Source: Candidatus Parcubacteria bacterium
Lineage (GTDB): Bacteria; Patescibacteriota; Microgenomatia; Levybacterales; GWA1-39-11
Length of the DNA: 64,000 nt
Assembly: GCA_003599595.1 (NCBI GenBank)
Contig: QZIP01000011.1
Location: 2,638-66,637 of the forward strand
Direction: 5' to 3'
Part shown: piece by piece, positions 7,013 to 64,000 of the stretch
Position numbering within the stretch: the first letter of the stretch is position 1
Layout: the number at the start of each line of letters is the position of its first letter
The notes under the pieces: model-generated
Seen by the model: the letters and a program-made list of their open reading frames with translations, nothing else
Told to the model about the DNA's origin: nothing
Database searches by the model: none
Program-made: the position numbers and the translations under genes

Positions 7013-7354
7013 TATAATTAAATGCTTTTGTGATCAATAAAATTGATCAAACTTAATTACTTATAAATAAGCAATTTACATACCCTTAACATAGTTTTCT
7101 CCAATTATTTGTTCCACAAAAAAAACATATTTTTTATTAAAATTTGAAGCTAAATTTTAAACTGCTATATTTTGATATCATTGTTAATAGTTGACTGTAT
7201 AGGGCTAGTGTTTTACTATATATCCTGGCACTAGATATAGTTTAGAATTTCAAATCTTAGATCGCAAATGTCAAATCTTAAGAAATTTATAATAATTGTC
7301 GCGAAGTGACACCTTAGTTTTGAGATTTGAGCTTTGACATTTGAGATTTAATTT

Positions 7355-10693: not shown

Positions 10694-10870
10694 AAATTTC
10701 TAATTTCAAACAGCCATTTTAAAGTTCAAAGTGCACCCGCCGCGCGAAGCGGGAAGTTCAAAGTTGCAGTTTAAAGTTTATAGTTGTAAATAATTTTGAA
10801 CTATTAACTGCAATTTTGCATTTTTAATCCGATCGAATCGGATTTTAATTTTGAACTTTGAATTGAAACA
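10694..10870. repeat. Composite intergenic repeat: GC hairpin CCCGCTTCGCGCGGCGGGTGCACTTTGAAC, TTTGAACTTT units and palindrome AATCCGATCGAATCGGATT
   Basis: The reverse complement of 10730-10790 matches 53028-53080 (TCCCGCTTCGCG.GGCG.GTGCACTTTGA). The palindrome AATCCGAT-N3-AATCGGATT recurs at 51076-51096 and, in related form, at 52786-52810. Confidence 0.55.
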
Positions 10871-10872
10871 TT

Positions 10873-11430
10873 ATGCCAATTTACACCAAAAAAGGAGATC
10901 AAGGGCAAACATCACTTCTAAATAAACAAAAGGTCTGGAAAAATTCCCAAAGGACAACTGCTTATGGAACTATCGATGAATTAAATAGTCTACTCGGTGT
11001 CGTAGTTGCCGAAATTGAAAACTCAGAATTCATGATTCATGATTCAGAATTCAAAAATCGGATAATTAGTATCCAAAATGACCTATTTCACATTGGTTCG
11101 TCTCTTGCCAATCCAGACAGTGATAAGGTTGACATCAATCTTTTAGAAAAAGTAAAAGATTTTGAAAAAAATATTGATGAAATGACAGCTCAAATGCCGC
11201 CCCTAAGTGCGTTTATTCTTCCCGGAGGGGGAAGAGTAGGATCTCTTTTTCAGTTTGCCCGCGCCACGGCTCGTCGTGCCGAAAGAGAAGCAGTTGCACT
11301 TTTTCAAAAAGAAAAAATCCAAGAAAATATTCTTGTTTATCTAAACCGCCTTTCAGACTTGCTCTTTACTTTATCCCGCTTTGCAAATTATAAGGAAAAT
11401 AAAAAAGAAGTCATTTGGAAAAAATCCTAG
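10873..11430 (+). CDS. pduO: PduO-type ATP:cob(I)alamin adenosyltransferase
   Basis: MPIYTKKGDQGQTSLLNKQKVWKNSQRTTAYGTIDELNSLLG matches the PduO/MMAB-family N-terminus. Contains a short low-complexity insert (SEFMIHDSEF). Confidence 0.85.
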   Translation: MPIYTKKGDQGQTSLLNKQKVWKNSQRTTAYGTIDELNSLLGVVVAEIENSEFMIHDSEFKNRIISIQNDLFHIGSSLANPDSDKVDINLLEKVKDFEKNIDEMTAQMPPLSAFILPGGGRVGSLFQFARATARRAEREAVALFQKEKIQENILVYLNRLSDLLFTLSRFANYKENKKEVIWKKS

Positions 11431-11479
11431 ACACCTCAACAACTTAAATACTTAGTCGTTGCTAGTAAAGCGATAAAGT

Positions 11480-11529
11480 CACCTCGGATGGTGGCCAAGC
11501 AACGACTTGGACTCCTCCGGGGTGGAGGT
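11480..11529. repeat. GC-rich hairpin repeat, copy A (CACCTCGGATGGTGGCC...GGACTCCTCCGGGGTGGAGG)
   Basis: Shares its ends and core with copies at 13150-13198, 15162-15202, 36505-36650 and 62521-62577. Confidence 0.6.
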
Positions 11530-11604
11530 ATTGAGAATAAACGTTGAGGAAATAAATAACGTAAATTAAGTCTTGAATAAATACTAATATACTAGTATAT
11601 TAGT

Positions 11605-11745
11605 AGCACTGTTGGTTTAACCACTGCCCTGTTGAATAACGGGGTGGGAAGGTTGAAGATTTTGGGAATTAGGTGTAAATCCTAAACTGTGCCGCAGCGG
11701 TAATTTCGATCATCTCGAATAAGTCCGAAGACCGACCAACATTGA
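11605..11745 (+). promoter_or_regulatory. Candidate cobalamin (AdoCbl) riboswitch aptamer with non-canonical element order
   Basis: B12-box-like CCACTGCC...GGGTGGGAAGG (11621-11652). Then GGGAAttaGGTGtAAaTCC...CCGCAGCGGTAA (11664-11702), matching the GGGAA-N3-GGTG-N-AA-N-TCC / CCCGC core consensus with exact spacing. Then GAAGACCGACC (11726-11736). An intrinsic terminator follows. Context: directly downstream of nrdJ and pduO. Confidence 0.35.
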
Positions 11746-11783
11746 TCCCGAGCAGGAAACTGAAAATATATTTGAAGTTTAAC

Positions 11784-11955: not shown

Positions 11956-13110
11956 ATGTCATTTAAAACAGAACAGTCTCATTATCAGACAATAGATGTT
12001 GCAAACAGAAATAGAGAAGTGGTTGGTTCAAGAGCCTGCAATCTAGAATATCTTTCCCATGTTACAGATGAGGAAATTAGAGACGATATTGTTTCTTATC
12101 TTGGGGAATATAGATTTAAACTCCAAAAATTTGATTACAAATTGGCTTTGGTAAAAGATAGTGATGGGAAAGTAGATCTTTGTGATCCACACCGTCTGGA
12201 GTCTATGTCTATTAAGTCAAAAAGAGCTATTGAGGAAAGAAAAGCAGCCGGTTTACCAACTCATAGGGAAGAAGCAGAAGAAACTGGAATAAGTCACTTA
12301 AAAGATCAGCTTAGATTTGCAAGAATAGGAGATAGGATATTTTGGGCAAGTCCTCCAGGGCCCAAAAGTGAAGGTTATGGAAACTATGGATTTTTATATT
12401 CAGGAAAAGTTTCGCAAATAAACTTTAACACTCAGGGAAAAGCTCAATATTTGGACATAGATATGACAGCAATAAGAGTAGAAAATCCTAGCATAGCAGA
12501 ATTTAACCAAGCAATGAGTGCTCTTACGGGAATAAAGTTTGATAACAGAGTTGCAGATGAATTTTTAGAACAGCCTGTGGTAACTAGAAGGTCAGTAAAA
12601 GATAGAGAAGTGGATAGTGTTATTTGTCAAAATTTTGACTTATCAGCTGATCAAAGAGAAAAATTTGATCAGGTTATTGCAGGTCTCGAGTCACAATTGT
12701 TAATAGATGACCTTATAAAAATTATCAGAACAGGATCAAGAGAAGAAAGAATTAAGGCCTTTTACACTCTTGAAAATTATGCCTTAAAGCTTAAGTCAGA
12801 AACAGCTCTCAATGAAAAAGTATTATACTTGAATGATTATAAAAAGAGAAAGTCTTTACAGGAGTTAGCAGTTTACTACAGCTATAGGCCTCCCATAGCT
12901 TTTGGCAGTTGCGGCTCAACAGACTCTAGCAATAGCTTAATTGGCTTAGGTTCTCCAAATGTCTTAAGTACTTTAGTCTTTGGCCCATCAAGCGAAAGAA
13001 AGATTCTTGCTTGTAAATGTCCTTCTTGTGAAAGACAAGTAAACGCTGTAATTGAGAACGGAAAAATAACCTGTCCCAAATGCAGCGCCTCAGCAGACTA
13101 CAATTGCTAA
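11956..13110 (+). CDS. Hypothetical protein with C-terminal double zinc ribbon (CKCPSC...CPKC)
   Basis: 384 aa ORF with no recognisable catalytic domain. Sits downstream of the riboswitch-like element and terminator. Confidence 0.55.
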   Translation: MSFKTEQSHYQTIDVANRNREVVGSRACNLEYLSHVTDEEIRDDIVSYLGEYRFKLQKFDYKLALVKDSDGKVDLCDPHRLESMSIKSKRAIEERKAAGLPTHREEAEETGISHLKDQLRFARIGDRIFWASPPGPKSEGYGNYGFLYSGKVSQINFNTQGKAQYLDIDMTAIRVENPSIAEFNQAMSALTGIKFDNRVADEFLEQPVVTRRSVKDREVDSVICQNFDLSADQREKFDQVIAGLESQLLIDDLIKIIRTGSREERIKAFYTLENYALKLKSETALNEKVLYLNDYKKRKSLQELAVYYSYRPPIAFGSCGSTDSSNSLIGLGSPNVLSTLVFGPSSERKILACKCPSCERQVNAVIENGKITCPKCSASADYNC

Positions 13111-13149
13111 AATATCATCAAAAAGATGACTCCCTGAGGAAGAAGCGGG

Positions 13150-13198
13150 TCCTCCTGGAAGGTGGCCCCGCCCCAGACGGGACTCCTTCAAGGTGGAC
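13150..13198. repeat. GC-rich hairpin repeat, copy B
   Basis: CTCCTGGAAGGTGGCCCCGCCCCAGACGGGACTCCTTCAAGGTGGACG, with a related fragment GACTCCCTGAGG just upstream. Confidence 0.55.
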
Positions 13199-13262
13199 GA
13201 GAACGGAAGACACCTCCATACACATCTTGTTTTTTGTTTCATTTCAAAGCTAAAATGAAACT

Positions 13263-13967: not shown

Positions 13968-14583
13968 ATGCAAATATATTTGAATAGAAATAGTACATAA
14001 AATGTAGCACTTCGCTAAAGCTTCGCGCTACACACTTCTTACCCATTTTAAAAGCGTGGTAACCTGTTAATTGTGGCCTTCCACGCGTAGCTCTTTACAA
14101 AGTAAAGAGCGAAGTGTGGAGATGGCCGAGAATGACCCGGCGTCCAAAAACAGTACCTATAAAATATCTACAAGCGTAGTCAATCTTTAATTGTCGTTTT
14201 AGGCTTAACTGATTGACAAGGGTGTCCTAAAACCAAGGTTAAAAGATAATATAAGGTAACCAGCCTCATATCCTTTTCTCAACTTTGTTTATGCCCGTAC
14301 TGTCCCGTTGAGAAGGGTCAATACAGACAGAGCTTAGTTTACGTAAGCAAGATTGCGTTCGTAAGCTAGGTCACTAGAACTTGGTCTAGCATTTATGTTT
14401 TGAGACTGTTTTATCCGCCTGTTAAGGCGAGATCTCGCTTTCGCGGACGGCTGTGTCTCAAAGCCGGCTTGCAATTTTAAAAGTGCTATCTCTGTCGATG
14501 CAATGCATCCCCAAGACCAATATTATACCAAATTTTACCCTCAAAAGCAAAAAATTCAAGCTATAATTAGCTCAAACCACTCA

Positions 14584-15084
14584 TCAACGTATTATTTCTT
14601 TCAATTCTCTTTCAATATCTCTTTGAATATCTTTTTCTTTCAAAAGCTTTTTCTTTTCAAACTGTTTTTTACCCTTGGAAAGTCCTATCTCAAGCTTAAT
14701 CACACTGTTTGAAACATACATAGAGAGTGGGGTAAGGGTAAAATTTCCCTGACTTATTTTGGATTTTAGAGCAATTATTTCTCTTTTATGTAGAAGCAGC
14801 TTTCTGGTTCTGCTTTCATCATAGCCCTCAATCCTTGAAAATTTATAGGGAAATATCTTAGCATTCACCAGATACGCTTCAGACTCCATTATTTTTACAT
14901 AAGAACCTGTAAGATCTGCATGTCCACCTCTGACAGCCTTAACTTCCGATCCCAAAAGCACAATCCCAGCTTCAATCTTCTCAAATATCTTAAATGAGGC
15001 TGGGGCAGTCTTGTTATGTATCTGAACATTTTTTCTTTGGCTATGCTCATTTTTGTTATTTTCAGTAAAATTATTCATAAGCAT
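14584..15084 (-). CDS. smpB: SsrA-binding protein SmpB
   Basis: ...FEKIEAGIVLLGSEVKAVRGG...YLVNAKIFPY...RTRKLLLHKREI...KGKKQFEKK. The likely start is the internal Met (MLMNNF); the longest ORF extends to 15135. Confidence 0.85.
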   Translation of the reverse strand: MLMNNFTENNKNEHSQRKNVQIHNKTAPASFKIFEKIEAGIVLLGSEVKAVRGGHADLTGSYVKIMESEAYLVNAKIFPYKFSRIEGYDESRTRKLLLHKREIIALKSKISQGNFTLTPLSMYVSNSVIKLEIGLSKGKKQFEKKKLLKEKDIQRDIERELKEIIR

Positions 15085-15161
15085 ATTGTAGTGGGTGCAG
15101 GGAAAGCTTTCAAGTAGGACCCAATCTGTACCCAACTAACTCGAGTTTGAAGCGGTTTAAA

Positions 15162-15202
15162 CACCTGGAAGGTGGCCGCATGGACTCCTTCCAGGTGGAG
15201 GA
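15162..15202. repeat. GC-rich hairpin repeat, copy C
   Basis: CACCTGGAAGG-TGGCCGCATGGACT-CCTTCCAGGTGGAGG. A perfect 11-bp stem is formed by CACCTGGAAGG and CCTTCCAGGTG. Confidence 0.6.
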
Positions 15203-15713: not shown

Positions 15714-17558
15714 TTATTGGAGGTCAAATGAATAAAGCTTATTATCTGCAACAACATATCCCTTTTTATTTGCCTCATCTATTGCAAATGAGTCCGCATC
15801 TTTTAGAGAATCCCATTTGTAGGAATTAACATAGTCTCCATCTTTGCCTATCGAAACAATTCTAGCGCTTTGCTTATCCAAGACATAGACGTTTGACATA
15901 TCTTTATCGGTATAAATAGAAAGACTGTTTCCAAAAGGGGTAACTAGGCCTTTAACTGAAAAACTCTCCTCTTTGCCCTTTGTAAATTTCCTTATTTTTC
16001 CATCTGCTTGTATAATCCAAATAGATGAATCTATAGAAAAGCTAACAGGTTCGCTTGAAAAATCAACCTCATTTGTGAAGTAGGAAGACTTGTTGAAGCC
16101 ACTGCTTACATATTTTTCAATATCATTTTCCTGGGAATTAAGAATATAAATATTTCCAAGAAAATTATCTATTGCAACTGCTCCACCGGAAACATTTTTA
16201 ATTATCCTCTCAGGTTTAGTTTTTTCTTTATCAAGTCTATAAATTCCATCTCCGCTTAAAAGATAAACATAGCTTTTATCAGAGCTTGCAATCTTTACAT
16301 CTTTTATTGCGCTTTGTAGCGTTTTTTGTAAAGACCCTTTTGTTGAAAAAAAGAGCACTGCCCCATTATTTTTATTGACAACAACCAGACTGTTTCCCTT
16401 AGTGCTTACCAAGTCTATGGTTTTAACTTTTTCATCTTTTTGGCTGTCAAACAGCACCTCTGTACTTATTTTTATTCCCTGGTCCAGGTCATCAATCTTA
16501 TTGTTTACTTCCGCTAAAAGATTTTCAATCTTTTTTCTTTCATTGCTCCCATTTTCAAATTTATTCTTTGCATCGTTTAACATTTTTTGTACTTCAGTCA
16601 ATTCACTTACAGCAAGGCTTTTGTTAAGATTTAGTATGGAAAGTGCTCCACTGTATTTTTGTTGAGCAGGATCAATAATTGCCTTAAATTCCTGTTCTTG
16701 TTGTTTTTGTTGTTGTCTGTTTTTTTCAATAACAATGCTTGCTCCAAGTGCACCTATCAAAACAATAATAAAAAATAAAATAATTGATTTTTTCCCTCCG
16801 ATAGCAGGTAGTTTTAACCATTCAAAAGAAAACCTTTTAAAGATGGTTTTAGAAGGTAAAATATTTTGTATTTTGTTTGCAATACTTTGCTTGTTTAATC
16901 TTCTTCCGGGATTATCGCTAATCACATCTTCTTCTTCCTTCTTTTCGGCTATTTCATTGCCATCATCCTCCATCTTGCCAGTTTTGTATTTCAATATTAT
17001 ACTTGCCTCTGTTCCTCTTGAATCTCTATGGATAGAAGGAGCAATATTCTCTGCAGCATCTAAAATATCCAAAGTATCCAGCAGTGAAGAAAGTTTATCA
17101 ACTGAGACCTTCTTGTAAAAATCAGCTGTCTCAATGATTATACTGTCATTATCTTTTAAAGGTCCTGAAAAACCATTTATTTCCCCTTCTTCACCTTCTG
17201 CCACAATTCCAATTTTGTCCTCTCTTTTGACTATTACATATCCCTGTCCAGCAATCACTATATAAAGAGTGTTTTGAATAATTGTGCTTAATATTATTGA
17301 ACAGTCTACATTTTCCTCAAGGCTTTTTATGGTATTTTCAACAGATGCTTTAATTGATTCCAAATTTTTTTCATCAAGTGCAAAAAATTCTCTTTGTAGT
17401 TTTTCAAGCACATCCTTCCCTAGAGTTGCTATGGTATTTTTTGCATGTTCCCTCTTAATACTTATAACCACATAAAGATTTAAGGTTGAATAGACCTGAG
17501 ACCAGCCTGTTTCAGTAGCATTTGCAACGATTTTAGATAAAAGAATATCTCCCTTCAT
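15714..17558 (-). CDS. Hypothetical membrane-anchored protein (614 aa) with a central TM segment and a beta-rich C-terminal domain
   Basis: Long ORF with one clear hydrophobic helix (SIILFFIIVLIGALGASIVI) and a Gln-rich linker. No confident domain call. Confidence 0.55.
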   Translation of the reverse strand: MKGDILLSKIVANATETGWSQVYSTLNLYVVISIKREHAKNTIATLGKDVLEKLQREFFALDEKNLESIKASVENTIKSLEENVDCSIILSTIIQNTLYIVIAGQGYVIVKREDKIGIVAEGEEGEINGFSGPLKDNDSIIIETADFYKKVSVDKLSSLLDTLDILDAAENIAPSIHRDSRGTEASIILKYKTGKMEDDGNEIAEKKEEEDVISDNPGRRLNKQSIANKIQNILPSKTIFKRFSFEWLKLPAIGGKKSIILFFIIVLIGALGASIVIEKNRQQQKQQEQEFKAIIDPAQQKYSGALSILNLNKSLAVSELTEVQKMLNDAKNKFENGSNERKKIENLLAEVNNKIDDLDQGIKISTEVLFDSQKDEKVKTIDLVSTKGNSLVVVNKNNGAVLFFSTKGSLQKTLQSAIKDVKIASSDKSYVYLLSGDGIYRLDKEKTKPERIIKNVSGGAVAIDNFLGNIYILNSQENDIEKYVSSGFNKSSYFTNEVDFSSEPVSFSIDSSIWIIQADGKIRKFTKGKEESFSVKGLVTPFGNSLSIYTDKDMSNVYVLDKQSARIVSIGKDGDYVNSYKWDSLKDADSFAIDEANKKGYVVADNKLYSFDLQ

Positions 17559-22776: not shown

Positions 22777-22802
22777 ACACTTTGTCGTCTACATTTATGT
22801 TG

Positions 22803-22874
22803 TGGGCCTGCTTGGGTTCGAACCAAGGACATCTAACTTATAAGGTTAGCGCTCTGCCACTGAGCTACAGGCCC
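22803..22874 (-). tRNA. tRNA-Ile with anticodon UAU
   Basis: Reverse complement is GGGCCTGTAGCTCAGTGGCAGAGCGCTAACCTTATAAGTTAGATGTCCTTGGTTCGAACCCAAGCAGGCCCA. It forms a cloverleaf. The anticodon stem is CTAAC/GTTAG and the loop CTTATAA gives anticodon TAT. The acceptor and D-arm are Ile-like. CCA is not encoded. Confidence 0.8.
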
Positions 22875-23095
22875 CGGCAAAATGAATTATAGCCTAAATT
22901 AGGCATAGGGGCAATAGAAGTCATTTTATAAAGAAGACACCTTTAAAAATTCAAAAGTCAAAATTCAAAAGTCAAAAGTTAGGTGTCGCAAGCGACTATT
23001 GATAAGCAGTTAAAGAAAACACCCTTTAAAGTTATAAATTATTACTACGTGCTACAAGCCACAAGCTAAAAGCTAGCTTTGAGCTGTGAACTTTT

Positions 23096-31619: not shown

Positions 31620-32925
31620 ATCCAGAAAATATACAGATTTTATTTGTGTATGTCTTCTCACAGTTAGCCTTAAGATAACACGGATGAAACTGATCCGTGA
31701 AATCTTATTTTGTAGGACAGATGTAAGGTCCGCATTACCGTAAAGCATTTAGGCCGCGGGAAGAGAAGGAGTAAATAAATTTGACATTTGAAATTTAAAA
31801 TTTGAAATTGGAAATTTATTTCCTCTCTCCCCGTTGTCTTTTTGCTTACGGTCAATGATGATCTGATTCAGTCCCGCAGGCTGGATGAGGGTGAGAGCAA
31901 AGAGAGCGGAGACGGTGATGCTGATGAGAGGGAGGAAAAATGAAAAGGAAGTCGTTACGCGGCAGTAGACAAAGAAGAGAAAGTAAGCCAACAGTCCAAG
32001 TGAAAGATCCTAACAGGATGGGACATTTGCAAACTGAAGGGCGCACATTTGTTGTCTCTCGGGTGTCTCCAGCCTCCGGGCTGTCCGAACCCTTCAGGGC
32101 ATCACCAGCGTGGGTAATACCGGCTCGTTGATATAGTACCAATAGAGATAAAGGGAGCCCACCCCCTCCCTTGATCCACTCTCGTAAAATCTGGAAGGAG
32201 TTAAGGAGTTGCTCAAAGGTGATATTGTGATAGGACTACAGAGGCTTTTCGAGGGTGTAAAAATAACTCCCGGACAAAGCCAGACTCTATACATGGATCC
32301 ATTCGGAGCATTCATTGATCCTCCTTCAGATCCCACACTTAATCCGCTCAGAGGATTCCAAGTCACCCTTGCTCCTGGTCCCAATCTTCCTCTTGAAGCA
32401 GTAGTGGGCATTCTGCTCGGCCTATGGTCGACGGGGAAGGAGTCAGAAGGTATGCAACCGGTCTGCGTCGATAAAGCAGAGGTAGGAAAGGACGGGCGAG
32501 CTCTTCTTGCGGCTTCAGGATCCACTGGGATCTATTTCATTTATCCCGCGTAATCGTTCAGAAGGAGGATGTGATGACAATCGGCACAAAGATCGGACCA
32601 GGAAGACGAGCTCGGACAGGACCACAATCCCGTCAAGGTCTTCAGATGGAAACAACTGGCGGCCCAGACAAGGTTGACCCCAAAGAATGGCAAAAAGGTT
32701 GCTGGGCTTGCCCGGAGTATCCTTGCAACTTCACCGTGCACAAGTGTCCCCATAGAGGTTGCGTGTTCGGATAGTTCGACAATTTGGAATCTGGATTTCC
32801 ATCATCAAGGCAAGAGGAGCGCTTGGGTTTGTGCGGAGGTCCTATTTGACCTCCAACCTTACTCAAGCGCTTTTCTTTTGGCAAAAAAGTTGCCCCAAAG
32901 CCTAATTTAGGTTAAAATTAAGGGT
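31620..32925. other. GC-rich ORF-free region of about 1.3 kb; candidate large structured RNA or foreign-DNA remnant
   Basis: About 50% GC against about 35% in flanks. Only short overlapping ORFs on both strands. Internal hairpins such as GGAGGTCCTATTTGACCTCC. Lies directly 5' of tRNA-Ser(UGA). Confidence 0.3.
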
Positions 32926-35617: not shown

Positions 35618-36487
35618 CTAAACCACAAGTAAAATTGTCCCCAGTATCATAATGCTTGCTCCAACTAATCTTTCTTTAATATTCGTTTCTTTAAAAATTA
35701 TTGCCCCCAAAAGAATTGTAAAAATTGGAGAAATTTTAAATACAGCCGTGGCATATCCTACATTTGTTAAAGAAAAAGCTGTAAAAGACAGCCATCTCCC
35801 CAAAACTGCAAAAAACGCAATAATTAAAAACCAGCCAAATTCATCTCTTACAACTCTATTTTCCCTCCTTAAGATTGGAAGCGCAAAAGGGATAATTAAA
35901 AGTGTAATAATTAAATCGCCAAAGAAAGCAACAAAAAGAGGCATAGAAGGATTGATAAGTGACATCGATTTTTTTTGAAAAATTGGCGTGATTGCCCATA
36001 TAAGATTTGCCAGTAAATATAGTTGAACTCCTCTATGTGAGAGGATATTTTTAAAAGGTGCAAAAATCCCCTTTTTAACCTCGCTTATATCCAAAAGATA
36101 TAATCCCAAAACTATTACCAATACTCCCAGTCCTCTTATGGGTGTAGGAATTTCTCCCAATGCAAAAGCGGCAATACCCATTGTAAATACAGGATTAAAG
36201 GCAGAAAATGGCGTAACTAAAGAAATAGGGGAGGTTTTAATTGACTTTAATACTGCTAAGAAAGCAGCAATATCAAGCACCGCAGAAATTGTCATAAACA
36301 AATAAAAAGTAGGTTCAATTTGAGGAACCCCTCCCAAAAACAAAACAATAACTGCAACTATTGGTACAACAAGAAGATTTACTAAAAGAAAAAAGGAGAG
36401 AGGACTAATGTTTTTTATTGCCTTTTTGGTAACAATTCCGGAAACTGATGTTCCAAGGGCAAAAAAGAGAGATAACCAAAACCACAT
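35618..36487 (-). CDS. EamA/DMT-family transporter
   Basis: 289 aa with 10 predicted TM helices and a duplicated 5-TM architecture typical of the DMT superfamily. Confidence 0.75.
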   Translation of the reverse strand: MWFWLSLFFALGTSVSGIVTKKAIKNISPLSFFLLVNLLVVPIVAVIVLFLGGVPQIEPTFYLFMTISAVLDIAAFLAVLKSIKTSPISLVTPFSAFNPVFTMGIAAFALGEIPTPIRGLGVLVIVLGLYLLDISEVKKGIFAPFKNILSHRGVQLYLLANLIWAITPIFQKKSMSLINPSMPLFVAFFGDLIITLLIIPFALPILRRENRVVRDEFGWFLIIAFFAVLGRWLSFTAFSLTNVGYATAVFKISPIFTILLGAIIFKETNIKERLVGASIMILGTILLVV

Positions 36488-36504
36488 AAAAATATTTTAA
36501 CATT

Positions 36505-36650
36505 TACACCTTGGAGGAATCCATTCCTTCGGCTTCGCTCAGGACAAGTCAGCCACAGAGGTGGGGAAACAACGACTTCGGCTCCTCAGATGTCTTCGGC
36601 CGTGAGATCCTCGACTCTGAGGTTCGGACTCGAAGAGCTCAGACCGAACT
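36505..36650. repeat. GC-rich repeat-related intergenic element, copy D (partial or degenerate)
   Basis: GAGGTGGGGAAACAACGACTTCGGCTCCTCAG shares CAACGACTT-GG-CTCCTC with copy A. Additional hairpins are present, for example CTCTGAGGTTCGGACTCGAAGAGCTCAG. Confidence 0.4.
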
Positions 36651-36690
36651 GGGTGAAGTTATATTAACAGCGTGATAAAATGTTTTAGTT

Positions 36691-37215
36691 ATGACTATTT
36701 TTATTTTTAACATTTTTTTGATTGTAGCCGCAATCTTTTTATTAATTCTTCTTTCTATGATTTGGCCCCCAGATAGTCCTTGGTCTCCCTGGTGGAGGAC
36801 AAATAAAAATATTGCCCGTGCCGCCTGCCGCCTCGCCAAAATAAAAGAAGGGGACACAGTTTATGAATTGGGGTGTGGTGATGCAAGTTTTCTTTTAACA
36901 GCCAACAAAGAATACAAAGCCAAAACAGTAGGGATAGAAATCGATCCGGTAAGATTTTTTATCGCCAAATTAAGGTTTGCTTTAAACAAATGTAATCAAT
37001 CAAAATTATTAAAAAAAGATTTCTTTGAGGTTAGTCTTTCTGATGCTGATGTAGTTTTTGTTTACCTTGTCCCAAAAGCCTTAGAAAAATTAATACCAAA
37101 ATTTAAAAAAGAATTAAAACCTAAAGCAAAAATCGTGAGCTTAAGATATAAAATAAATTTACCGCTTCTTGAAGAAGACAAAAAATCAAAACTATATCTT
37201 TACAAAATCTCTTAA
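36691..37215 (+). CDS. Class I SAM-dependent methyltransferase
   Basis: N-terminal TM segment and motif I VYELGCGDASFLL. Confidence 0.7.
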   Translation: MTIFIFNIFLIVAAIFLLILLSMIWPPDSPWSPWWRTNKNIARAACRLAKIKEGDTVYELGCGDASFLLTANKEYKAKTVGIEIDPVRFFIAKLRFALNKCNQSKLLKKDFFEVSLSDADVVFVYLVPKALEKLIPKFKKELKPKAKIVSLRYKINLPLLEEDKKSKLYLYKIS

Positions 37216-45228: not shown

Positions 45229-47439
45229 CTACAAATTATATATTTGATAAATTTTAACATCTCCATTTTGATACACAACTTTCCCAATTTGGTCAAATTT
45301 TTTCTCAAACAAATCTTTGTATTTTTCCCGCTCTAAACCACCTATGTAAACATATTTGACGTTATACTTTCTAAGTATTTTTGTTGTTTTATTAGTGTCC
45401 GTATTTTCGTAAATTATTTGTATGTCTGTAATTCTTGGTGCTGGAACATCATAGCTTCCTCTCCACAACCATTCATGTACAGTCCAGCCAAGCACAGTCG
45501 GTATCCCTGTATTTGCTGAGATTCTTGCATAATCCGTATAAGAATCTCCCTGAGCTTCAAGCATAACAGGTTGTCCCTTTATATTTTTATTAATCCATAG
45601 AATCGCTTCATAATCATAAGGCCGTAGTGTTTTTAAATATTTTGTTCCATCAAGTCCTTTATAGTTAATAAATTTATTATAGTAAGAAGGTATGGCAAAA
45701 TAAGGATAAGCAAGAACTATTCCAATAAAAATCATTGATGACAAGAAAAAGGGAAAGCTTTTTGTAGTCCTTGTTATTTTAACCAAAATATAAGCACTTG
45801 AGATTGATAAAAGAATAAAAGATTGATAGACCAACTTAAACATAGTATTTGCCCGGTAATGATTTGGATAAATATCTTTTACATAAACAAACTCCGGTAC
45901 TATTATTAAGAGTGTGGATAAAAAGATCAATAGAATAACAAAATAATCTTGCACTTTCACCTGATATCTTCTTATTTTTAAAATAAATATTGAATATGAA
46001 AAAACAAAAAAGTAAAAAAATCCATAAAGAATAAAAAGTTGCCAAAGAGTAGATTTTTGGCAATGATTTGCTTCAAAAAGAAAAGGTCCAATTTTGCCGA
46101 TTTGAGTTAAAAAATGAGGGGAGCATAATACTCCAATACCGGAAACAAAAGGCTTGAAATTTAAATTAAAAGGTAAAGTAAAAACAAAATATCCAACAAC
46201 CAATACTCCAATATATTTTAAAGAGCTATAAATTTGATATTTGATATTTGATATTTGATATTTGATATTATCGTTCGAATTAGACATTTCTTTTTTAACA
46301 GTAAGCGCAATAATTACCAGCGACGATAATAGCATATAAATGGCTCCATCCCACGCATTTGTCATATACATTACTGCTAACACAAGTGCTAGCAAAGTAA
46401 AAATTAAAAACTCTCGATTATAAAAAAAACTTTTAAGTTTTAAGTTTTGGTTTTGACTTTTGACTTTTGACTTTTGAGTTTGCTTGTTTTCGGAAGATCT
46501 CAAAAAAATCGCAAGCAGTAATGCAATTGTCAACAACACAAACGGAATATCTGAAACGTGTCCGTGTAGATCTGAAACTACAAAAGAATACAGTGGAAAT
46601 TCGTGGATTGTAAAAGGAATAAACCTTGTAGCATTAGGATACCAATAGCTGTTTGGAAAAGAGCTGGCAGAAAAAAATAAAGACCAAAAAGGAATAGGAT
46701 TGTCTGTAGTGTAAGGCTTAAAAAGAGAATAAATGGTATGTAAATTGCCGGCAAATGACACAAATAATCCTGCAAAAATTCCTGTTATTACACTATTTCT
46801 TGATATTTTTCTAAAATCAAAAAGATTTAAAGCAATAGAAAAGGAAGAAGCAAATGTGAAAGAGAAAATAGTAGCAATCATTAAGTTGTAGGAAATATTT
46901 GAGGGTATTTGCGTAAATTTGGTCATAAGAGCTGCTACAAAATGACCATAATAATAGTAATTAATAGAATGGGGAGCAAACCACATATCAGCCGCCGGTA
47001 GATAATCGCTTCTAAGTATTGAATTCATAAATCCGAAATCCATATATTTTTCCAATCCGTAAATATCAGGCCCAAAACCTTTTATAAAAGACCAAAAAAG
47101 AATACCTATAAAAAACAATATCTCAAAAGCGCTATATGTTAAAAATTTTTCTTTAAAATATTTAATTGCAGATCTTTGTTTAATCAAAATTAAAATATTT
47201 ACAAATAATACAATTAATATTGAAAAATAAATTGTTTCAAGAGAAAATTGTGCAATTCTAAGAATTGAAAGCAGAAAAACAATATATGAAACAAAAATTA
47301 GACCAATTGTTTTTGCGAAGATATAGCCTTTGTCTGAAAAATCTTTAAAAATAAGTGAGGTGATCGGTAGAGATGAAGATCCAATTATCCAAAAAGCCAT
47401 CCACCACTGAATTACTAAAATCAACTCTTGTGTAGACAT
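45229..47439 (-). CDS. Large polytopic membrane protein (736 aa), possibly DUF2298/GT-C-like; carries two in-frame repeat inserts
   Basis: More than 12 hydrophobic helices plus a C-terminal soluble domain. In-frame arrays at 46233-46269 (ATTTGAT repeats encoding NIKYQISNIKYQI) and 46430-46483 (TTTTGAC repeats encoding KSKVKSQNQNLKLKS). Confidence 0.4.
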   Translation of the reverse strand: MSTQELILVIQWWMAFWIIGSSSLPITSLIFKDFSDKGYIFAKTIGLIFVSYIVFLLSILRIAQFSLETIYFSILIVLFVNILILIKQRSAIKYFKEKFLTYSAFEILFFIGILFWSFIKGFGPDIYGLEKYMDFGFMNSILRSDYLPAADMWFAPHSINYYYYGHFVAALMTKFTQIPSNISYNLMIATIFSFTFASSFSIALNLFDFRKISRNSVITGIFAGLFVSFAGNLHTIYSLFKPYTTDNPIPFWSLFFSASSFPNSYWYPNATRFIPFTIHEFPLYSFVVSDLHGHVSDIPFVLLTIALLLAIFLRSSENKQTQKSKVKSQNQNLKLKSFFYNREFLIFTLLALVLAVMYMTNAWDGAIYMLLSSLVIIALTVKKEMSNSNDNIKYQISNIKYQIYSSLKYIGVLVVGYFVFTLPFNLNFKPFVSGIGVLCSPHFLTQIGKIGPFLFEANHCQKSTLWQLFILYGFFYFFVFSYSIFILKIRRYQVKVQDYFVILLIFLSTLLIIVPEFVYVKDIYPNHYRANTMFKLVYQSFILLSISSAYILVKITRTTKSFPFFLSSMIFIGIVLAYPYFAIPSYYNKFINYKGLDGTKYLKTLRPYDYEAILWINKNIKGQPVMLEAQGDSYTDYARISANTGIPTVLGWTVHEWLWRGSYDVPAPRITDIQIIYENTDTNKTTKILRKYNVKYVYIGGLEREKYKDLFEKKFDQIGKVVYQNGDVKIYQIYNL

Positions 47440-50989: not shown

Positions 50990-51100
50990 AACGTAAAGCG
51001 AAAAGTGCAAAGCGCAAAACTAAAGTTTAAAACTTAAAACTTTGACTTTTGAGTTTTGGTTTTGAGCTTTTAATCCGATTAAATCGGATTTGAGCTTTTA
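50990..51100. repeat. Same composite repeat family between the two GT39 paralogues
   Basis: AAAGTGCAAAGCGCAAAACTAAAGTTTAAAACTTAAAACTTTGACTTTTGAGTTTTGG followed by AATCCGATTAAATCGGATTTGAGC. Confidence 0.5.
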
Positions 51101-52783
51101 CTTTTTAGCTTTCTGAAAGATAAACAGTGTTGGTCTATCAAAAACATTCACCGTTTCTTCAAATCTAAAAACAGGATCTCCTAAATAAGTTGTTTTACAA
51201 AAAAAATCACAAGGAGTTTCATAAATCTTATTATATCCAAGTTTGCCTGAAAAAAGATTTCTATAAAATGTACTGCTAATGGGAAATCTTTTAGGATTCA
51301 CAAGTCTTGTTCTGGTTACTCTTGGACTTGCAAGAATAATATAGTCACTTTCCCCCACCTCTGTCAAGAAATTACTATTGTGTGGATTATGGTCTATATT
51401 GTAAAAATTATAAAGTTTAATATTGTTAAAATACTGGTTAAAAGGAAGAATTCCCAAGTCATAAACCTCACTTAAAATTCTTGCATCTGGGCTAATTTCC
51501 CCTTTTGCAACAATACTGGCAGAAGCCCTAGTATCACCTTTTAAATAAACTGTTGTAAAGAAAGAAAAAGCAAAAAACAAATTACTTAAAATTATAATTA
51601 CTAAAAAAATAATATTAATTTTTTTTAAACTATTTATGGCACTTTTTTTATTCAGTTGTTCAGCTAACGAAATTAAAAAAAGTGAAATTATTAGGTATGC
51701 AAATGGTAGACTTGGAACAATATACCTTGTCCACTTTACAAAAAGAAAAGATTGAGAGAAAAATATAATTACAAAAAACATAATTAAAAACATACTCTTT
51801 TTACCGCCCCTTTTTAAAGAGACAAAAGACAAATAAAGCAGTGCAAAAATAAAAGTCACAGAAAGTAGTGGATTAAGTAAAAAAGGAAGCGTATTTATAG
51901 ACTGGTAAAGTACAGGAGTAGTGTCATAAAATCCCTGTGTGTAAAAAACCGGTAGAGCTCCTATAGCAACTGAGGATTCATATTTAAAACTGTTTTGGAA
52001 AGAAGAGAAGTCTAAAAAAACAAAAGGAGAAAATATTGAAAAGGTTGTTAAAGAAAGAAATAGAATCCCAAAAATTTGTTTTAGTTTCAACATTAATCTT
52101 TGTTTGTGATTTACCAATAAAAAAACAATTACAGGAACCGGAAGAAATATAAGAGAGGATATTTTAATAGAAATTAGTGTTCCCACAACAACAGAAGAAT
52201 AAAGTAGATACTTATATTTTTGCTTTATAATGTAGCTTAACAAACAATAAAACAAAAGAAGAGAAAAAAATGTAAGCCACATTTCAAAAGTTCCAAAATG
52301 TGAATATTGAATAAATCCGGGGCTTGCTGATGCAAGGATTAGAGCAAGAAAACCCGTCCTTTTATCTTTAATTAATTTACCCGTATTATATAAAAGAAAG
52401 AGAATAAGAAAGGAAAAAATTAAAGAGTAAATCCTACTAATGATTATTGTTTGGCCAAATGAAATTATAAAGTTATCAATAACCGGATTGTTAAATAGGG
52501 AATTTGCCAAATTCCAGACAAGACCCTGAAAATAAATTGCATAAATTGGCAGGCTGCCATAGGCAAAAAAATGCGGATTCATTTGTTGGGGAAATCTTAA
52601 TTGTGTAACAGCAGAAGCAATATTTCTTTCATCAGGATGAAAATAAAATGGAGAGCCCCAGTTGAGATTATAAACTCTAAAAAATACTCCTAGTAGTATT
52701 ATTATTAATAAAAGTATGTTTGTAAAACTTAATTTTATTCTAATTAAATCCATAATGCTAATCTCTAAAAGATCAAATCTCAA
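51098..52783 (-). CDS. GT-C fold membrane glycosyltransferase (GT39/ArnT/PMT-like), paralogue
   Basis: NWGSPFYFHPDERNIASAV at the equivalent position. About 15 TM helices. Confidence 0.65.
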   Translation of the reverse strand: MRFDLLEISIMDLIRIKLSFTNILLLIIILLGVFFRVYNLNWGSPFYFHPDERNIASAVTQLRFPQQMNPHFFAYGSLPIYAIYFQGLVWNLANSLFNNPVIDNFIISFGQTIIISRIYSLIFSFLILFLLYNTGKLIKDKRTGFLALILASASPGFIQYSHFGTFEMWLTFFSLLLFYCLLSYIIKQKYKYLLYSSVVVGTLISIKISSLIFLPVPVIVFLLVNHKQRLMLKLKQIFGILFLSLTTFSIFSPFVFLDFSSFQNSFKYESSVAIGALPVFYTQGFYDTTPVLYQSINTLPFLLNPLLSVTFIFALLYLSFVSLKRGGKKSMFLIMFFVIIFFSQSFLFVKWTRYIVPSLPFAYLIISLFLISLAEQLNKKSAINSLKKINIIFLVIIILSNLFFAFSFFTTVYLKGDTRASASIVAKGEISPDARILSEVYDLGILPFNQYFNNIKLYNFYNIDHNPHNSNFLTEVGESDYIILASPRVTRTRLVNPKRFPISSTFYRNLFSGKLGYNKIYETPCDFFCKTTYLGDPVFRFEETVNVFDRPTLFIFQKAKK

Positions 52784-53085
52784 ATCTCCCCCCCGATTAA
52801 ACCGGGGTCAAATATCAAAAACAAGTTTCGTCCAGAGGACGATCTAGTCCAAAGGACTATTGGCCTGTGGTCAAAGCCTTTGGCTGACAAAGATGATTAA
52901 AGAATAAAGAACAATGATTAACGAATAATGATTGATGAATAATGAATACAAAAACAAAATCATCAATCATCAATCATCAATCATTAATCAAAGTAATTGG
53001 TTTTTAGCTTTGAATTAGGTTTTGATTTTCCCGCTTCGCGAGGCGAGTGCACTTTGATCTTTGCACTTTAAAGTAATCAGATCAA
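52780..53085. repeat. Same composite repeat family
   Basis: TCAAATCTCAAATCTCCCCCCCGATTAAACCGGGGTCAAAT and TTTCCCGCTTCGCGAGGCGAGTGCACTTTGATCTTTGCACTTTAAAG. Confidence 0.5.
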
Positions 53086-62285: not shown

Positions 62286-64000
62286 TATGGAGCCAAATAT
62301 CAAGGAAAACCAATCAAATATAAGAAATTTTGCAATTATTGCTCATGTTGACCATGGTAAATCAACTTTAGCAGATAGGCTGCTGGTAATGACAGGGACT
62401 GTATCAAAAGAAAAAATTGGAGAACAATTTTTGGACTCCAATCCTATCGCCCGTGAGCACGGAATAACCATCAAACTCGCACCAGTAAGAATGGAATATA
62501 AATTATCAGATTTAAACCATTCCACCTCGGAGGAGTCATGGCCTCGCAAACTCGGCCTGCCACCGTCCGAGGTGAAGTACATTCTAAATCTTATAGACAC
62601 ACCAGGACATGTCGACTTTTCCTATGAAGTTGTTAGAACCCTACAAGCCTGTGAAGGAGCAGTATTGCTCGTAGACGCTACTAAAGGAATTCAGGCCCAA
62701 ACTGTTGCAAACTATAATTTTGCCAAAAAACTGGGACTCGTAATAATTCCTGTAATCAACAAGATTGATCTTGACAGTGCACAGGTTGAAAAAGCAGAAG
62801 AAGACTTAGTTCTAAGTTTTGGGTTTGACAAACATGAAATCTTGAAAATTTCAGCCAAAAGTGGAGAGAATGTAGAAAATCTGCTTCTTGAGATTATTAA
62901 GAGAATCCCACCACCAACAGGAGACAAAAATGATCCAGCTCAGGCCTTAATCTTTGACTCAATTTATGATGAGCATAAAGGAATTGTGATTTATACAAGA
63001 TTAAAAAACGGCAAGATAAAAAAAGGAGATGAGATAAAATTTATATCAGACAATAGTACTGCAATGGTTCTTGGTACCGGCTATATGCAGCCAATCTACT
63101 CGTTCTCAGAAGAAATCTCAAGCGGAGAAGTGGGTTTTGTTATAACAAATATAAAAGATATTTCAAAAGCAAAAGTTGGGGATACAATAACAACTCTTAA
63201 AGATCCCGGTCCAGCTCTTCCAGGATATATGCCGGTTAAGCCATACGTCTATCTATCTCTCTTTCCTTATTCTGCCTCTGAATTTAACAATTTAAGAAAT
63301 GCCTTCTTAAAGCTGAAGCTTATTGATGCATCCCTATCTTTTACTCCTGAACATTCAGTAATCCTTGGCCCAGGTCTAAGATGTGGTTTTTTAGGACTTT
63401 TACATGCTCAAATTACAATTGAGAGAATAGAAAAGGAATTTGGAATAGATGTTTTTATAGCCCCTCCAAGCATAGAATACATCGTAGACGGTAAAACCAT
63501 TTCCAAACCTCAAGAGTTTGATATGTCAAAAAAGGAAATTTTAGAACCTTATATTAAAGGAGAAATATATACCCCCCATGAATACTTGGGAAATTTATTA
63601 GAACTAATCTATAAAAAAAGAGCAATCCAGAAAGAAATTGTTTATTTTGGATCACAGGTTAAAATTGTTTTTGAAATACCACTATCAGAAGTTGTATTTA
63701 ATTTCTACGACAAAATAAAATCTGCATCTTCAGGTTTTGCATCTTTTGATTATGAATTTTTAGAATACAGAAGAGGAGATCTGGTAAGAGTAGACATTGC
63801 CCTAAATGATAAAGTGGTAGATGAATTATCTTTTATAATTCACAAGTCTGAAACTGAATATTTTGCCCGTGATATTTTATATAAATTAAAAGAAGCAATA
63901 CCAAAACATCAATTTGTGGTGTCTTTGCAGGCAAGGATCGGTGGTAGAGTAATTGCAGGTGAAAAAATAGCCGCTCTTCACAAGAATGTAATTGAAAAAC
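62286..64000 (+). CDS. lepA: Elongation factor 4 (LepA), 3'-partial, with an in-frame repeat insertion in the G domain
   Basis: IRNFAIIAHVDHGKSTLADRLL, REHGITIKLAPVRMEY, LIDTPGHVDFSYEV, VINKIDL. The ORF continues to the window end and is absent from the ORF track for that reason. An extra NHSTSEESWPRKLGLPPSEV segment is encoded by the GC-rich repeat at 62521-62577. Confidence 0.9.
62521..62577. repeat. GC-rich hairpin repeat, copy E, inverted and inserted in-frame in lepA
   Basis: The reverse complement is CACCTCGGACGGTGGCAGGCCGAGTTTGCGAGGCCATGACTCCTCCGAGGTGGA. It aligns with copy A at both arms (CACCTCGGA.GGTGGC ... GACTCCTCC..GGTGGAGG). Confidence 0.6.

What the first reader, a model, noticed from the sequence alone, without database searches (positions are those of the whole stretch)
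62515..62580. GC-rich hairpin repeat inserted in-frame into the G domain of lepA
LepA normally reads ...GITIKAQAVRLxYKxxDGxxYxLNxIDTPGH... at this point. Here an extra segment of about 18 aa (NHSTSEESWPRKLGLPPSEV) lies between VRMEYKLSDL and KYILNLIDTPGH. The inserted DNA is about 52% GC in a 35% GC gene. It is the reverse complement of the intergenic repeat at 11480-11529, with the same arms CACCTCGGA.GGTGGC and GACTCCTCC..GGTGGA. The frame is preserved. This is the behaviour described for Rickettsia palindromic elements, mobile hairpin repeats that colonise coding sequences without destroying them.
Basis: partly seen in the sequence, partly recalled or inferred. Interest (0 to 1): 0.75.

Follow-up and report, generated by a model that had tools for sequence, protein, structure and literature searches.

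The report
Mobile hairpin repeat inside lepA
A 60-base GC-rich hairpin repeat sits in frame inside the translation-factor gene lepA of an ultra-small (CPR) bacterium, and it belongs to an apparently undescribed, highly conserved repeat family that lies mostly inside protein-coding genes across the Microgenomates.

Summary
lepA (from 62287, + strand) carries 60 extra bases (62519-62578; 62% GC against 35% for the rest of the gene). They add 20 codons between strands b2 and b3 of the G domain. The three nearest orthologues (71-74% identical) lack them. The insert is the reverse complement of three intergenic copies in the window (11476-11528, 13148-13199, 15158-15201). All four fold into one hairpin.

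The family is not private to this genome. A strict two-arm pattern found at least 115 loci, almost all in Microgenomates MAGs, and a covariance model found 138 copies. 98% of stem cells are paired, and three arm variants differ by compensatory changes. 68% of copies lie deep inside open reading frames, the same as random segments (69%). They occur in all six frame and orientation classes, and none splits a gene into two frames. So the comparison with Rickettsia palindromic elements holds as behaviour. It is not a member of that family: it is shorter, unrelated in host, and much more widespread.

One result was unexpected. Orthologous copies stay 96-100% identical while the flanking coding DNA is 67-72% identical, and one copy pair shows a compensatory stem change. 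The hairpin itself is therefore constrained. How it moves or what it does is unknown.

The parts
62287..64000 (+). lepA (elongation factor 4), 5' part; the host gene runs off the window end
   Evidence: Translation. 100% identical to P0001, a 613-aa 'elongation factor 4' with Pfam GTP_EFTU, D2, EFG_C and LepA_C domains. E=1e-163 to solved LepA structures.
62519..62578 (-). The inserted hairpin element (60 nt). It is read on the gene strand as about 20 extra codons within residues 76-96 (LNHSTSEESWPRKLGLPPSEV). The exact junctions cannot be placed to the base.
   Evidence: 60-nt gap against the orthologue. Covariance-model hit of 63.3 bits, E=2.8e-16. 61.7% GC. RNA fold -31.3 kcal/mol, z=-3.3, on the element strand, and -27.2 kcal/mol, z=-3.8, on the mRNA strand. 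DNA folds z=-3.0 and z=-3.9.
62559..62574 (-). 5' arm plus conserved internal-loop half, CACCTCGGACGGTGGC (element orientation)
   Evidence: Exact pattern match; model alignment.
62538..62558 (-). Variable inner stem-loop AGGCCGAGTTTGCGAGGCCAT. It belongs to the recurrent 'AGGCUGAG..GCGAAGCCAU' module, here with GGCC/GGCC in place of GGCU/AGCC.
   Evidence: Alignments A4 and A5; list of inner modules.
62521..62537 (-). Conserved internal-loop half plus 3' arm, GACTCCTCCGAGGTGGA
   Evidence: Exact pattern match.
11476..11528 (+). Intergenic copy A. It lies 46 nt after the stop of ORF 10873-11430 and upstream of the cobalamin riboswitch at 11596-11754. It carries the subfamily 5' flank AAGCGATAAAGT.
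   Evidence: (59.7 bits).
13148..13199 (+). Intergenic copy B, 38 nt after the stop of ORF 11956-13110
   Evidence: 34.8 bits.
15158..15201 (+). Intergenic copy C (short CUGGAAGG/CCUUCCAG arm variant), between two minus-strand ORFs (14584-15135 and 15714-17558)
   Evidence: (40.0 bits).

Best explanation
The segment is one copy of a short (44-86 nt) GC-rich hairpin repeat that multiplies within Microgenomates (CPR) genomes. It landed in lepA in this lineage.

It survives there for three reasons. The net gain is 60 nt, so the frame is kept. The element has no stop codon in the frame used. The site is the solvent-exposed b2-b3 turn of the G domain, which tolerates long inserts. It is most likely translated as a disordered loop of about 20 residues (STSEESW...PPSEV), with the G2 (GITIK) and G3 (DTPGH) motifs left intact.

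Shown:
- family membership;
- absence from the orthologues;
- frame preservation;
- loop position;
- hairpin covariation;
- family-wide residence inside genes.

Inferred: the element spreads by being copied as a folded single strand that a trans-acting enzyme or host factor recognises. That recognition, or gene conversion between copies, or a cis function, would keep the arm sequence nearly invariant. The factor has not been identified.
For: The insert and its absence elsewhere. In the one JGI metagenome scan, no other LepA/EF-G-type gene carried the arm at this site.

Family in the window.

Family across Microgenomates: at least 115 loci matched a pattern for which I estimate about 1 chance match. 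There were 138 covariance-model hits.

Structure: 98.4% of stem cells are paired, 6 of 13 pairs change on both sides, and 0 of 500 shuffles reach this; slid controls give 44-59% paired. The arm variants CUCGGAYGG/CCUCCGAGG (74 copies), CCUGGAAGG/CCUUCCAGG (18) and CUGGGAYGG/CCUCCCAGG always co-occur, although the search pattern did not force this.

Behaviour in genes: 74 of 105 pattern hits and 94 of 138 model hits have at least 40 open codons on both sides, in all six frame and orientation classes. No gene is split into two frames. Hosts include a PcrA/UvrD helicase, PurL, CopA, PolX and an M24 peptidase.

Mobility: identical 47-nt copies sit at non-homologous sites. Density ranges from about 1 per 5 kb to none between genomes. 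The helicase site is filled in P0121 and P0124 and empty in the closer relatives P0122 and P0123.

Loop tolerance: in the AlphaFold2 model, residues 77-93 have pLDDT below 50 and lie between strands 67-72 and 97-102. 33 of 119 LepA relatives carry other inserts of 8-37 aa at the same turn.
Against: No mobilising enzyme, target-site duplication or fixed element ends were found. The core length inside ORFs takes all three values mod 3 (39:31:23), so the junctions are variable.

An old selfish insertion should decay. Instead, orthologous copies are 100% (47/47) and 96% (45/47) identical while their flanks are 67-72% identical. The L026 and L122 copies differ by a compensatory GAGG/CCUC to GAAG/CUUC change.

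The fraction of copies inside ORFs equals that of random placement (68% against 69%). That is more than a simple insert-then-filter model predicts.

Translation of the insert is not shown; no proteome or transcriptome was available.
Confidence: 0.8

Rival explanations
1. The hairpin is mainly a host-selected cis-acting signal rather than selfish DNA. It would be a DNA or RNA hairpin bound by a conserved Microgenomates factor. The lepA copy would then be maintained for that function, and it lies inside a gene because these compact genomes have little intergenic space.
For: The arms are conserved at nucleotide level far above the flanking coding DNA at orthologous sites. A compensatory change occurs in an orthologous copy pair. 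The arm sequence is almost invariant across groups ranked as separate candidate phyla. Coding sequence is not avoided. There is a sense-strand bias of 68 F to 26 R. At gene junctions the element supplies the stop codon of one gene and a GGAGG placed before the next start codon.
Against: Copy density differs at least tenfold between genomes, and no copy occurs in 38 kb around lepA of the nearest relatives. Sites are present or absent among close orthologues. Identical copies sit at unrelated loci. All of these are typical of a mobile repeat. No binding factor or phenotype is known. This reading is not exclusive of the best explanation.
Confidence: 0.2
2. The element is not translated. It would be removed from the mRNA (a mini-intron) or skipped by the ribosome, as with the T4 gene 60 gap or mitochondrial 'byp' elements.
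For: It is a stable hairpin on the mRNA strand (-27.2 kcal/mol, z=-3.8). It is a GC-rich cluster in an AT-rich genome, like the bypassed elements of yeast mitochondria (my own knowledge).
Against: All 94 copies inside genes keep one open frame across the element, and none splits a gene. That constraint is needed only if ribosomes read through. Removing the 52-nt hairpin core from lepA would leave 8 nt and shift the frame. There is no stop codon or take-off/landing codon pair at the borders.
Confidence: 0.04
3. The segment is a native, lineage-specific LepA loop, or an assembly artefact. Its likeness to the intergenic repeats would then be chance.
For: The b2-b3 turn is hypervariable in this clade. 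The sequence comes from a metagenome-assembled genome.
Against: Two exact arm matches of 16-17 nt have chance expectations of 0.33 and 0.07. The model score is E=2.8e-16. The same inner module occurs in other phyla. The frame and both flanks are colinear with the orthologues.
Confidence: 0.02

Closest known systems
Rickettsia palindromic elements (RPE; Ogata et al. 2000 and 2002, as summarised in PMC10969869)
   Same: A multi-copy palindromic repeat found both between genes and in frame inside unrelated housekeeping genes. The insert falls in a surface loop, and the mechanism of mobility is unknown.
   Different: RPEs are about 100-150 bp, restricted to Rickettsia, and each encodes a conserved peptide. 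This element is 44-86 nt and lives in CPR Microgenomates across many phylum-rank groups. It is used in all six frame and orientation classes, so the peptides differ. Its arm sequence is almost invariant, and orthologous copies are better conserved than their host genes.
REP elements with RAYT transposases (REPtrons; PMC3733652, PMC2817692)
   Same: A short imperfect GC-rich palindrome at high copy number, with the hairpin conserved by compensatory change. Recognition as a folded single strand by a HUH enzyme would fit the orientation bias.
   Different: REPs are extragenic and carry a GTAG or CGTC tag. Here 68% of copies are inside ORFs and the ends read CACC...GGTG(GA). No Y1 transposase was found in 940 kb, though this was a weak test.
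Folded single-strand recombination sites such as integron attC (my own knowledge)
   Same: The architecture is similar: a conserved outer stem, a bulged base, a small conserved internal loop, then a terminal stem-loop that varies in length and sequence.
   Different: The R-box consensus is absent, there are no cassette arrays or nearby integrase, and copies lie inside genes.
GC clusters and 'byp' elements of yeast mitochondria; coding palindromes of Nematomorpha mitochondria (PMC6649704)
   Same: GC-rich hairpins that colonise coding sequence in AT-rich compact genomes.
   Different: Those are organellar. The byp elements break the frame and are bypassed, whereas these elements always keep the frame.

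Membership tests
Rickettsia palindromic elements (RPE) | Multi-copy palindromic (hairpin-forming) repeat | tested here: met
   Four copies in the window and 138 in the fetched loci; a common hairpin with covariation.
Rickettsia palindromic elements (RPE) | Inserted in frame in protein-coding genes without disrupting them | tested here: met
   lepA gains 60 nt with the frame kept. 94 of 138 copies lie deep in open frames and none splits a gene.
Rickettsia palindromic elements (RPE) | About 100-150 bp, one of the RPE sequence families, genus Rickettsia, one conserved peptide per family | tested here: not met
   Length is 44-86 nt. The hosts are Microgenomates. Six different peptide classes are encoded. 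Direct sequence comparison with RPE consensus sequences was not done.
Rickettsia palindromic elements (RPE) | Insert is translated and lies on the protein surface | tested here: inconclusive
   The loop position is supported. Translation cannot be tested with these tools.
REP / RAYT | Extragenic location | tested here: not met
   68% of copies are inside ORFs, the same as random segments.
REP / RAYT | GTAG or CGTC tetranucleotide tag at one end (PMC3733652) | tested here: not met
   The conserved ends are (A)CACC and GGTGGA. One subfamily has the flanks AAGCGATAAAGA and GAGGAATCA.
REP / RAYT | Cognate Y1 (RAYT) transposase gene in the genome | tested here: inconclusive
   tblastn with an IS200 TnpA sequence recalled from memory found no significant hit in 940 kb. 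Whole genomes were not available.
MITE | Target-site duplication and defined termini matching a parent IS | tested here: inconclusive
   No duplication is discernible at the lepA or helicase filled/empty sites, but the orthologues are only 72-77% identical. Core length mod 3 varies. A parent IS was not sought.
Intrinsic terminator | GC-rich hairpin followed by a T run | tested here: not met
   Copies A, B and C are not called by the terminator scan and no T tract follows them.
Any Rfam 15 RNA family | Covariance-model match | tested here: not met
   No hit at gathering score. Only chance-level hits at E above 1.
Bypassed or spliced coding-gap elements | The element interrupts the frame or carries stop codons, so it must be removed or skipped | tested here: not met
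   The frame is open through every copy inside a gene.

The most novel reading that the evidence does not exclude
The hairpin is a functional nucleic-acid signal of Microgenomates. It would be a folded DNA or RNA site read by a conserved, still unknown factor, scattered through the genome and kept by purifying selection even inside essential coding sequences. Proteins such as LepA would then carry 'passenger' loops dictated by a non-protein code.
Probability: 0.25. Interest if true: 0.9.

Novelty: new variant of a known kind. Interest (0 to 1): 0.78.

Why it matters
RPE-like 'selfish DNA inside genes' has been treated as a peculiarity of Rickettsia and a few other intracellular bacteria. This work points to a shorter, much more widespread and much better conserved counterpart in the Candidate Phyla Radiation, where almost no biology of repeats is known.

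It matters for three reasons:
- It explains some of the odd lineage-specific inserts seen in CPR housekeeping proteins.
- It offers a natural catalogue of permissive loop sites.
- The element is conserved better than the genes it sits in, which poses a concrete, testable question: what reads this hairpin?

It also matters for annotation, because these GC-rich segments will distort alignments, phylogenies and structure predictions of CPR marker proteins.

Tried and rejected
- Rfam at gathering score, and at E up to 10 on two copies: nothing.
- tRNA/tmRNA scan: unrelated genes only.
- Terminator scan: copies A-C are not terminator-like.
- Weak model hits at 36503-36630: not members (8-10 bits). 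That GC-rich spacer has no Rfam match and a fold z of -1.9.
- IMG/VR scan with the family pattern: 0 hits, so no sign of a phage vector.
- JGI metagenome scan for the hairpin arm next to NLIDTPGH codons: three hits, all chance.
- The look-up of encoding contigs for the window's own LepA (P0001): not on record. P0119: no DNA available.
- The 37-aa insert at the same LepA site in P0062 (L121): no second copy in 22 kb and a non-significant fold (z=-1.4), so it is not shown to be a repeat.
- Target-site duplication at lepA: the flanking CATTC pair is 62 nt apart, which is incompatible with the 60-nt gain, so I rejected it.
- G·U against A·C counts, to tell an RNA from a DNA structure: 14 against 4, too few and biased by the model.
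- IS200 TnpA tblastn: negative but weak.
- Six literature searches found no description of such an element in CPR.

Full report
**1. What is at 62515-62580**

lepA begins at ATG 62287 on the + strand and runs off the window. Its product is 100% identical to P0001, a 613-aa 'elongation factor 4' from an NCBI MAG labelled Candidatus Parcubacteria. All close relatives are Levybacteria, which belong to the Microgenomates group of the Candidate Phyla Radiation.

Between the G2 motif (GITIK) and the G3 motif (DTPGH) the protein has 40 residues. The three nearest relatives (P0002, P0003 and P0004, 71-74% identical) have 20, as do about 80 of the 120 best hits. A DNA alignment with the P0003 locus gives one clean 60-nt gap. 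Alignment to the solved Aquifex LepA (2YWE) gives a 19-residue gap, exactly at YKAKDGN|TYKLHLIDTPGH.

The rest of lepA is 34.6% GC and the window is 35.4%.

**2. It is a copy of a repeat**

The two arms match the intergenic sequence at 11480-11526 exactly on the opposite strand, apart from the one N position in each arm. The chance expectations are 0.33 and 0.07 matches. Two further copies lie at 13148-13199 and 15158-15201.

All four copies fold into the same shape (DNA parameters):
- an outer stem of 11-13 pairs;
- a small conserved internal region (5' U-G-G-C, 3' G-A-C-U);
- an inner stem-loop that differs in sequence and length between copies.

I built a covariance model from 55 copies and ran it with filters off. 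It finds exactly these four in the 64 kb. The lepA copy scores highest, at 63.3 bits. None of the intergenic copies looks like an intrinsic terminator. None matches an Rfam family.

**3. The family is large and old**

I scanned one genome per GTDB species with a two-arm pattern, for which I estimate about one chance match. The named taxa are Gottesman-, Levy-, Davies-, Curtiss-, Woese-, Chisholm-, Collier- and Shapirobacteria, plus 'Patescibacteria'. Some MAGs carry ENA labels such as 'uncultured Gammaproteobacteria', but they hold genes orthologous to Levybacteria loci, for example L107 against L007. About ten high-GC hits lack arm complementarity and are the expected noise.

The model finds 138 copies in 777 kb of these loci. 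98.4% of stem cells are standard pairs and 6 of 13 pairs show changes on both sides. No shuffle out of 500 reaches this, and slid registers give 44-59% paired. One caveat is that this alignment was fitted to the model.

An independent check does not depend on the model. The pattern left the relevant positions free, yet 5' CUCGGAYGG always occurs with 3' CCUCCGAGG (74 copies). CCUGGAAGG occurs with CCUUCCAGG (18), and CUGGGAYGG with CCUCCCAGG.

The inner part has 75 distinct sequences among 105 copies, but recurrent modules can be recognised. The lepA copy has the 'AGGCUGAG..GCGAAGCCAU' module with a compensatory GGCC/GGCC stem.

**4. Living inside genes is the rule**

Of 105 pattern hits in low-GC loci, 74 have at least 40 open codons on both sides in one frame, and all six frame and orientation classes occur. 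The encoded peptides include TSDGG..DSSEV, HLGWW.., TPRMVA..LLRGG, HLGGV..ATIRG and PPRRSP... The lepA class is STSEES..PPSEV. With the model hits the figure is 94 of 138 (68%), and random segments of the same length in the same loci give 69%. Coding sequence is therefore not avoided at all.

Of the remaining copies, some lie in frame near a C-terminus. Others sit at gene junctions, where the upstream ORF ends at a stop codon inside the element and the 3' arm GGUGGAGG precedes the next start codon. No gene is split into two frames.

The hosts are ordinary enzymes:
- a PcrA/UvrD helicase;
- PurL, with three copies;
- CopA;
- PolX;
- an M24 peptidase, with two copies;
- glycosyltransferase-like membrane proteins.

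The length of the hairpin core inside ORFs takes all three values mod 3 (39:31:23). The inserted unit therefore has no fixed ends relative to the hairpin. One subfamily, which includes window copy A, has the extra conserved flanks AAGCGAUAAAGA and GAGGAAUCA. The lepA copy does not have them.

**5. Signs of mobility**

- Identical 47-nt copies occur at non-homologous loci within and between genomes.
- Density ranges from about 1 per 5 kb (Gottesmanbacteria JACREK01) through 1 per 16 kb (this window) to none beyond the selecting hit. No copy occurs in 38 kb around lepA of the two nearest relatives.
- In a PcrA/UvrD helicase, the site is filled in P0121 and in P0124 (69% identical). It is empty in the closer relatives P0122 and P0123 (77% identical). 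P0129 holds a diverged version that is still paired.
- The lepA insertion itself is private to this lineage. None of 119 relatives has it. A scan of the JGI metagenome collection for the arm next to NLIDTPGH codons found only chance matches.

**6. What does not fit plain selfish DNA**

At orthologous sites the element is much better conserved than its host gene. For L007 against L075, the element is 47/47 identical while the flanks are 67-71% identical. By my calculation the probability of this under flank-like divergence is about 3e-8. For L095 against L115, the element is 45/47 identical and the flanks 71-72%.

The L026 and L122 helicase copies differ by a double, compensating change in the inner stem (GAGG/CCUC to GAAG/CUUC), plus a change in the bulged base.

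The orientation is also biased towards the sense strand of the host gene: 68 against 26, binomial p about 2e-5 by my calculation.

So the hairpin is constrained where it sits. Three causes are possible: a factor that must keep recognising it, gene conversion among copies, or a cis function. I could not tell these apart. The outer 9-bp stem CACCUCGGA/UCCGAGGUG is a perfect palindrome and reads the same on both strands, so orientation does not separate DNA from RNA. The G·U against A·C test was underpowered. I found no IS200-like transposase in 940 kb (weak test) and no copy in IMG/VR.

**7. Consequence for LepA**

In an AlphaFold2 model built with 45 homologues (mean pLDDT 80.5), residues 77-93 have pLDDT below 50. 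They lie between strand 67-72 (b2) and strand 97-102 (b3). The G1-G3 motifs are intact.

The same turn carries other, mutually unrelated inserts of 8-37 residues in 33 of 119 relatives. It is evidently a permissive site. One of those inserts (P0062, L121) was checked at the DNA level and could not be shown to be a repeat or a significant hairpin.

The simplest reading is that the 60 nt are translated into a floppy surface loop. The alternative of excision or bypass is disfavoured. Every copy inside a gene keeps the frame, and removing the 52-nt hairpin core would shift the lepA frame.

**8. Comparison with known systems**

In behaviour this is the RPE phenomenon. For membership it fails on size, host and the 'one conserved peptide' feature. 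It also fails the REP criteria of extragenic location and a GTAG/CGTC tag (PMC3733652). MITE criteria (target duplication, parent IS) are undecided. In architecture it recalls folded single-strand recombination sites such as attC, but it has none of their sequence or context features.

Rfam 15 has no such family. Six full-text searches found no description in CPR. That is not proof that nobody has described it.

**9. Verdict**

- Observation: confirmed.
- Interpretation: supported as an analogy.
- Novelty: a new variant of a known kind.

The lepA case is one ordinary member of an unusual family. The family is the more interesting result.

Noticed in passing
window 62470-62600, and LepA relatives P0002-P0120: The b2-b3 turn of LepA is an insertion hot spot in Levybacteria. 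33 of 119 relatives carry mutually unrelated inserts of 8-37 aa at exactly this site, for example P0007, P0008, P0044, P0062 and P0119. Several look like translated low-complexity repeats.
   Followed up: partly
L007/L075/L107, L095/L115, L026/L122 (orthologous element copies): Element copies at orthologous sites are 96-100% identical while the flanking coding DNA is 67-72% identical. L026 and L122 differ by a compensatory GAGG/CCUC to GAAG/CUUC change. The hairpin is under stronger nucleotide-level constraint than its host genes.
   Followed up: partly
L009, L033, L114 (gene junctions); window 11466-11537: At some gene junctions the upstream ORF ends at a TGA or TAG inside the element's inner loop. 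The 3' arm GGUGGAGG then lies about 7 nt before the next ATG, so the element supplies both a stop codon and a Shine-Dalgarno-like site. One subfamity has the conserved flanks AAGCGAUAAAGA and GAGGAAUCA.
   Followed up: partly
window 10721-10762 and 53021-53062; 7241-7350, 22946-22989, 31775-31816, 46228-46481, 51014-51112: A second, AT-rich kind of intergenic repeat is present, built of TTTGA / AAAGTTCAAAG-type units. Some flank a GC-rich core (AAAGTTCAAAGTGCACCCGCCGCGCGAAGCGGGAAGTTCAAA). It occurs in both orientations across the window.
   Followed up: no
window 36490-36690: A GC-rich spacer of about 170 nt lies between divergent ORFs (35618-36487 on the - strand, 36691-37215 on the + strand). 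It has several CUUCGG-type hairpins. There is no Rfam match and the fold z is -1.9. It gives weak, non-member hits to the hairpin model.
   Followed up: partly
window 11596-11754 and 11956-13110: A cobalamin riboswitch (60 bits) lies upstream of a 384-aa ORF of unknown function with C-terminal CxxC pairs, just downstream of a PduO-type adenosyltransferase-like ORF (10873-11430). Hairpin copies A and B bracket this unit.
   Followed up: no
window 22802-22874 (-): ARAGORN calls a tRNA-Ile with anticodon TAT (UAU), which is uncommon in bacteria. The tmRNA is at 14114-14512 (-).
   Followed up: no
L015 (PurL-like ORF, about residues 575-605): Besides three hairpin copies, the same ORF holds a further GC-rich stretch that translates as HLRGASSARLAGALASRRSSGLAKRVTSEVAK. 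It may be another or a degenerate repeat insertion.
   Followed up: no
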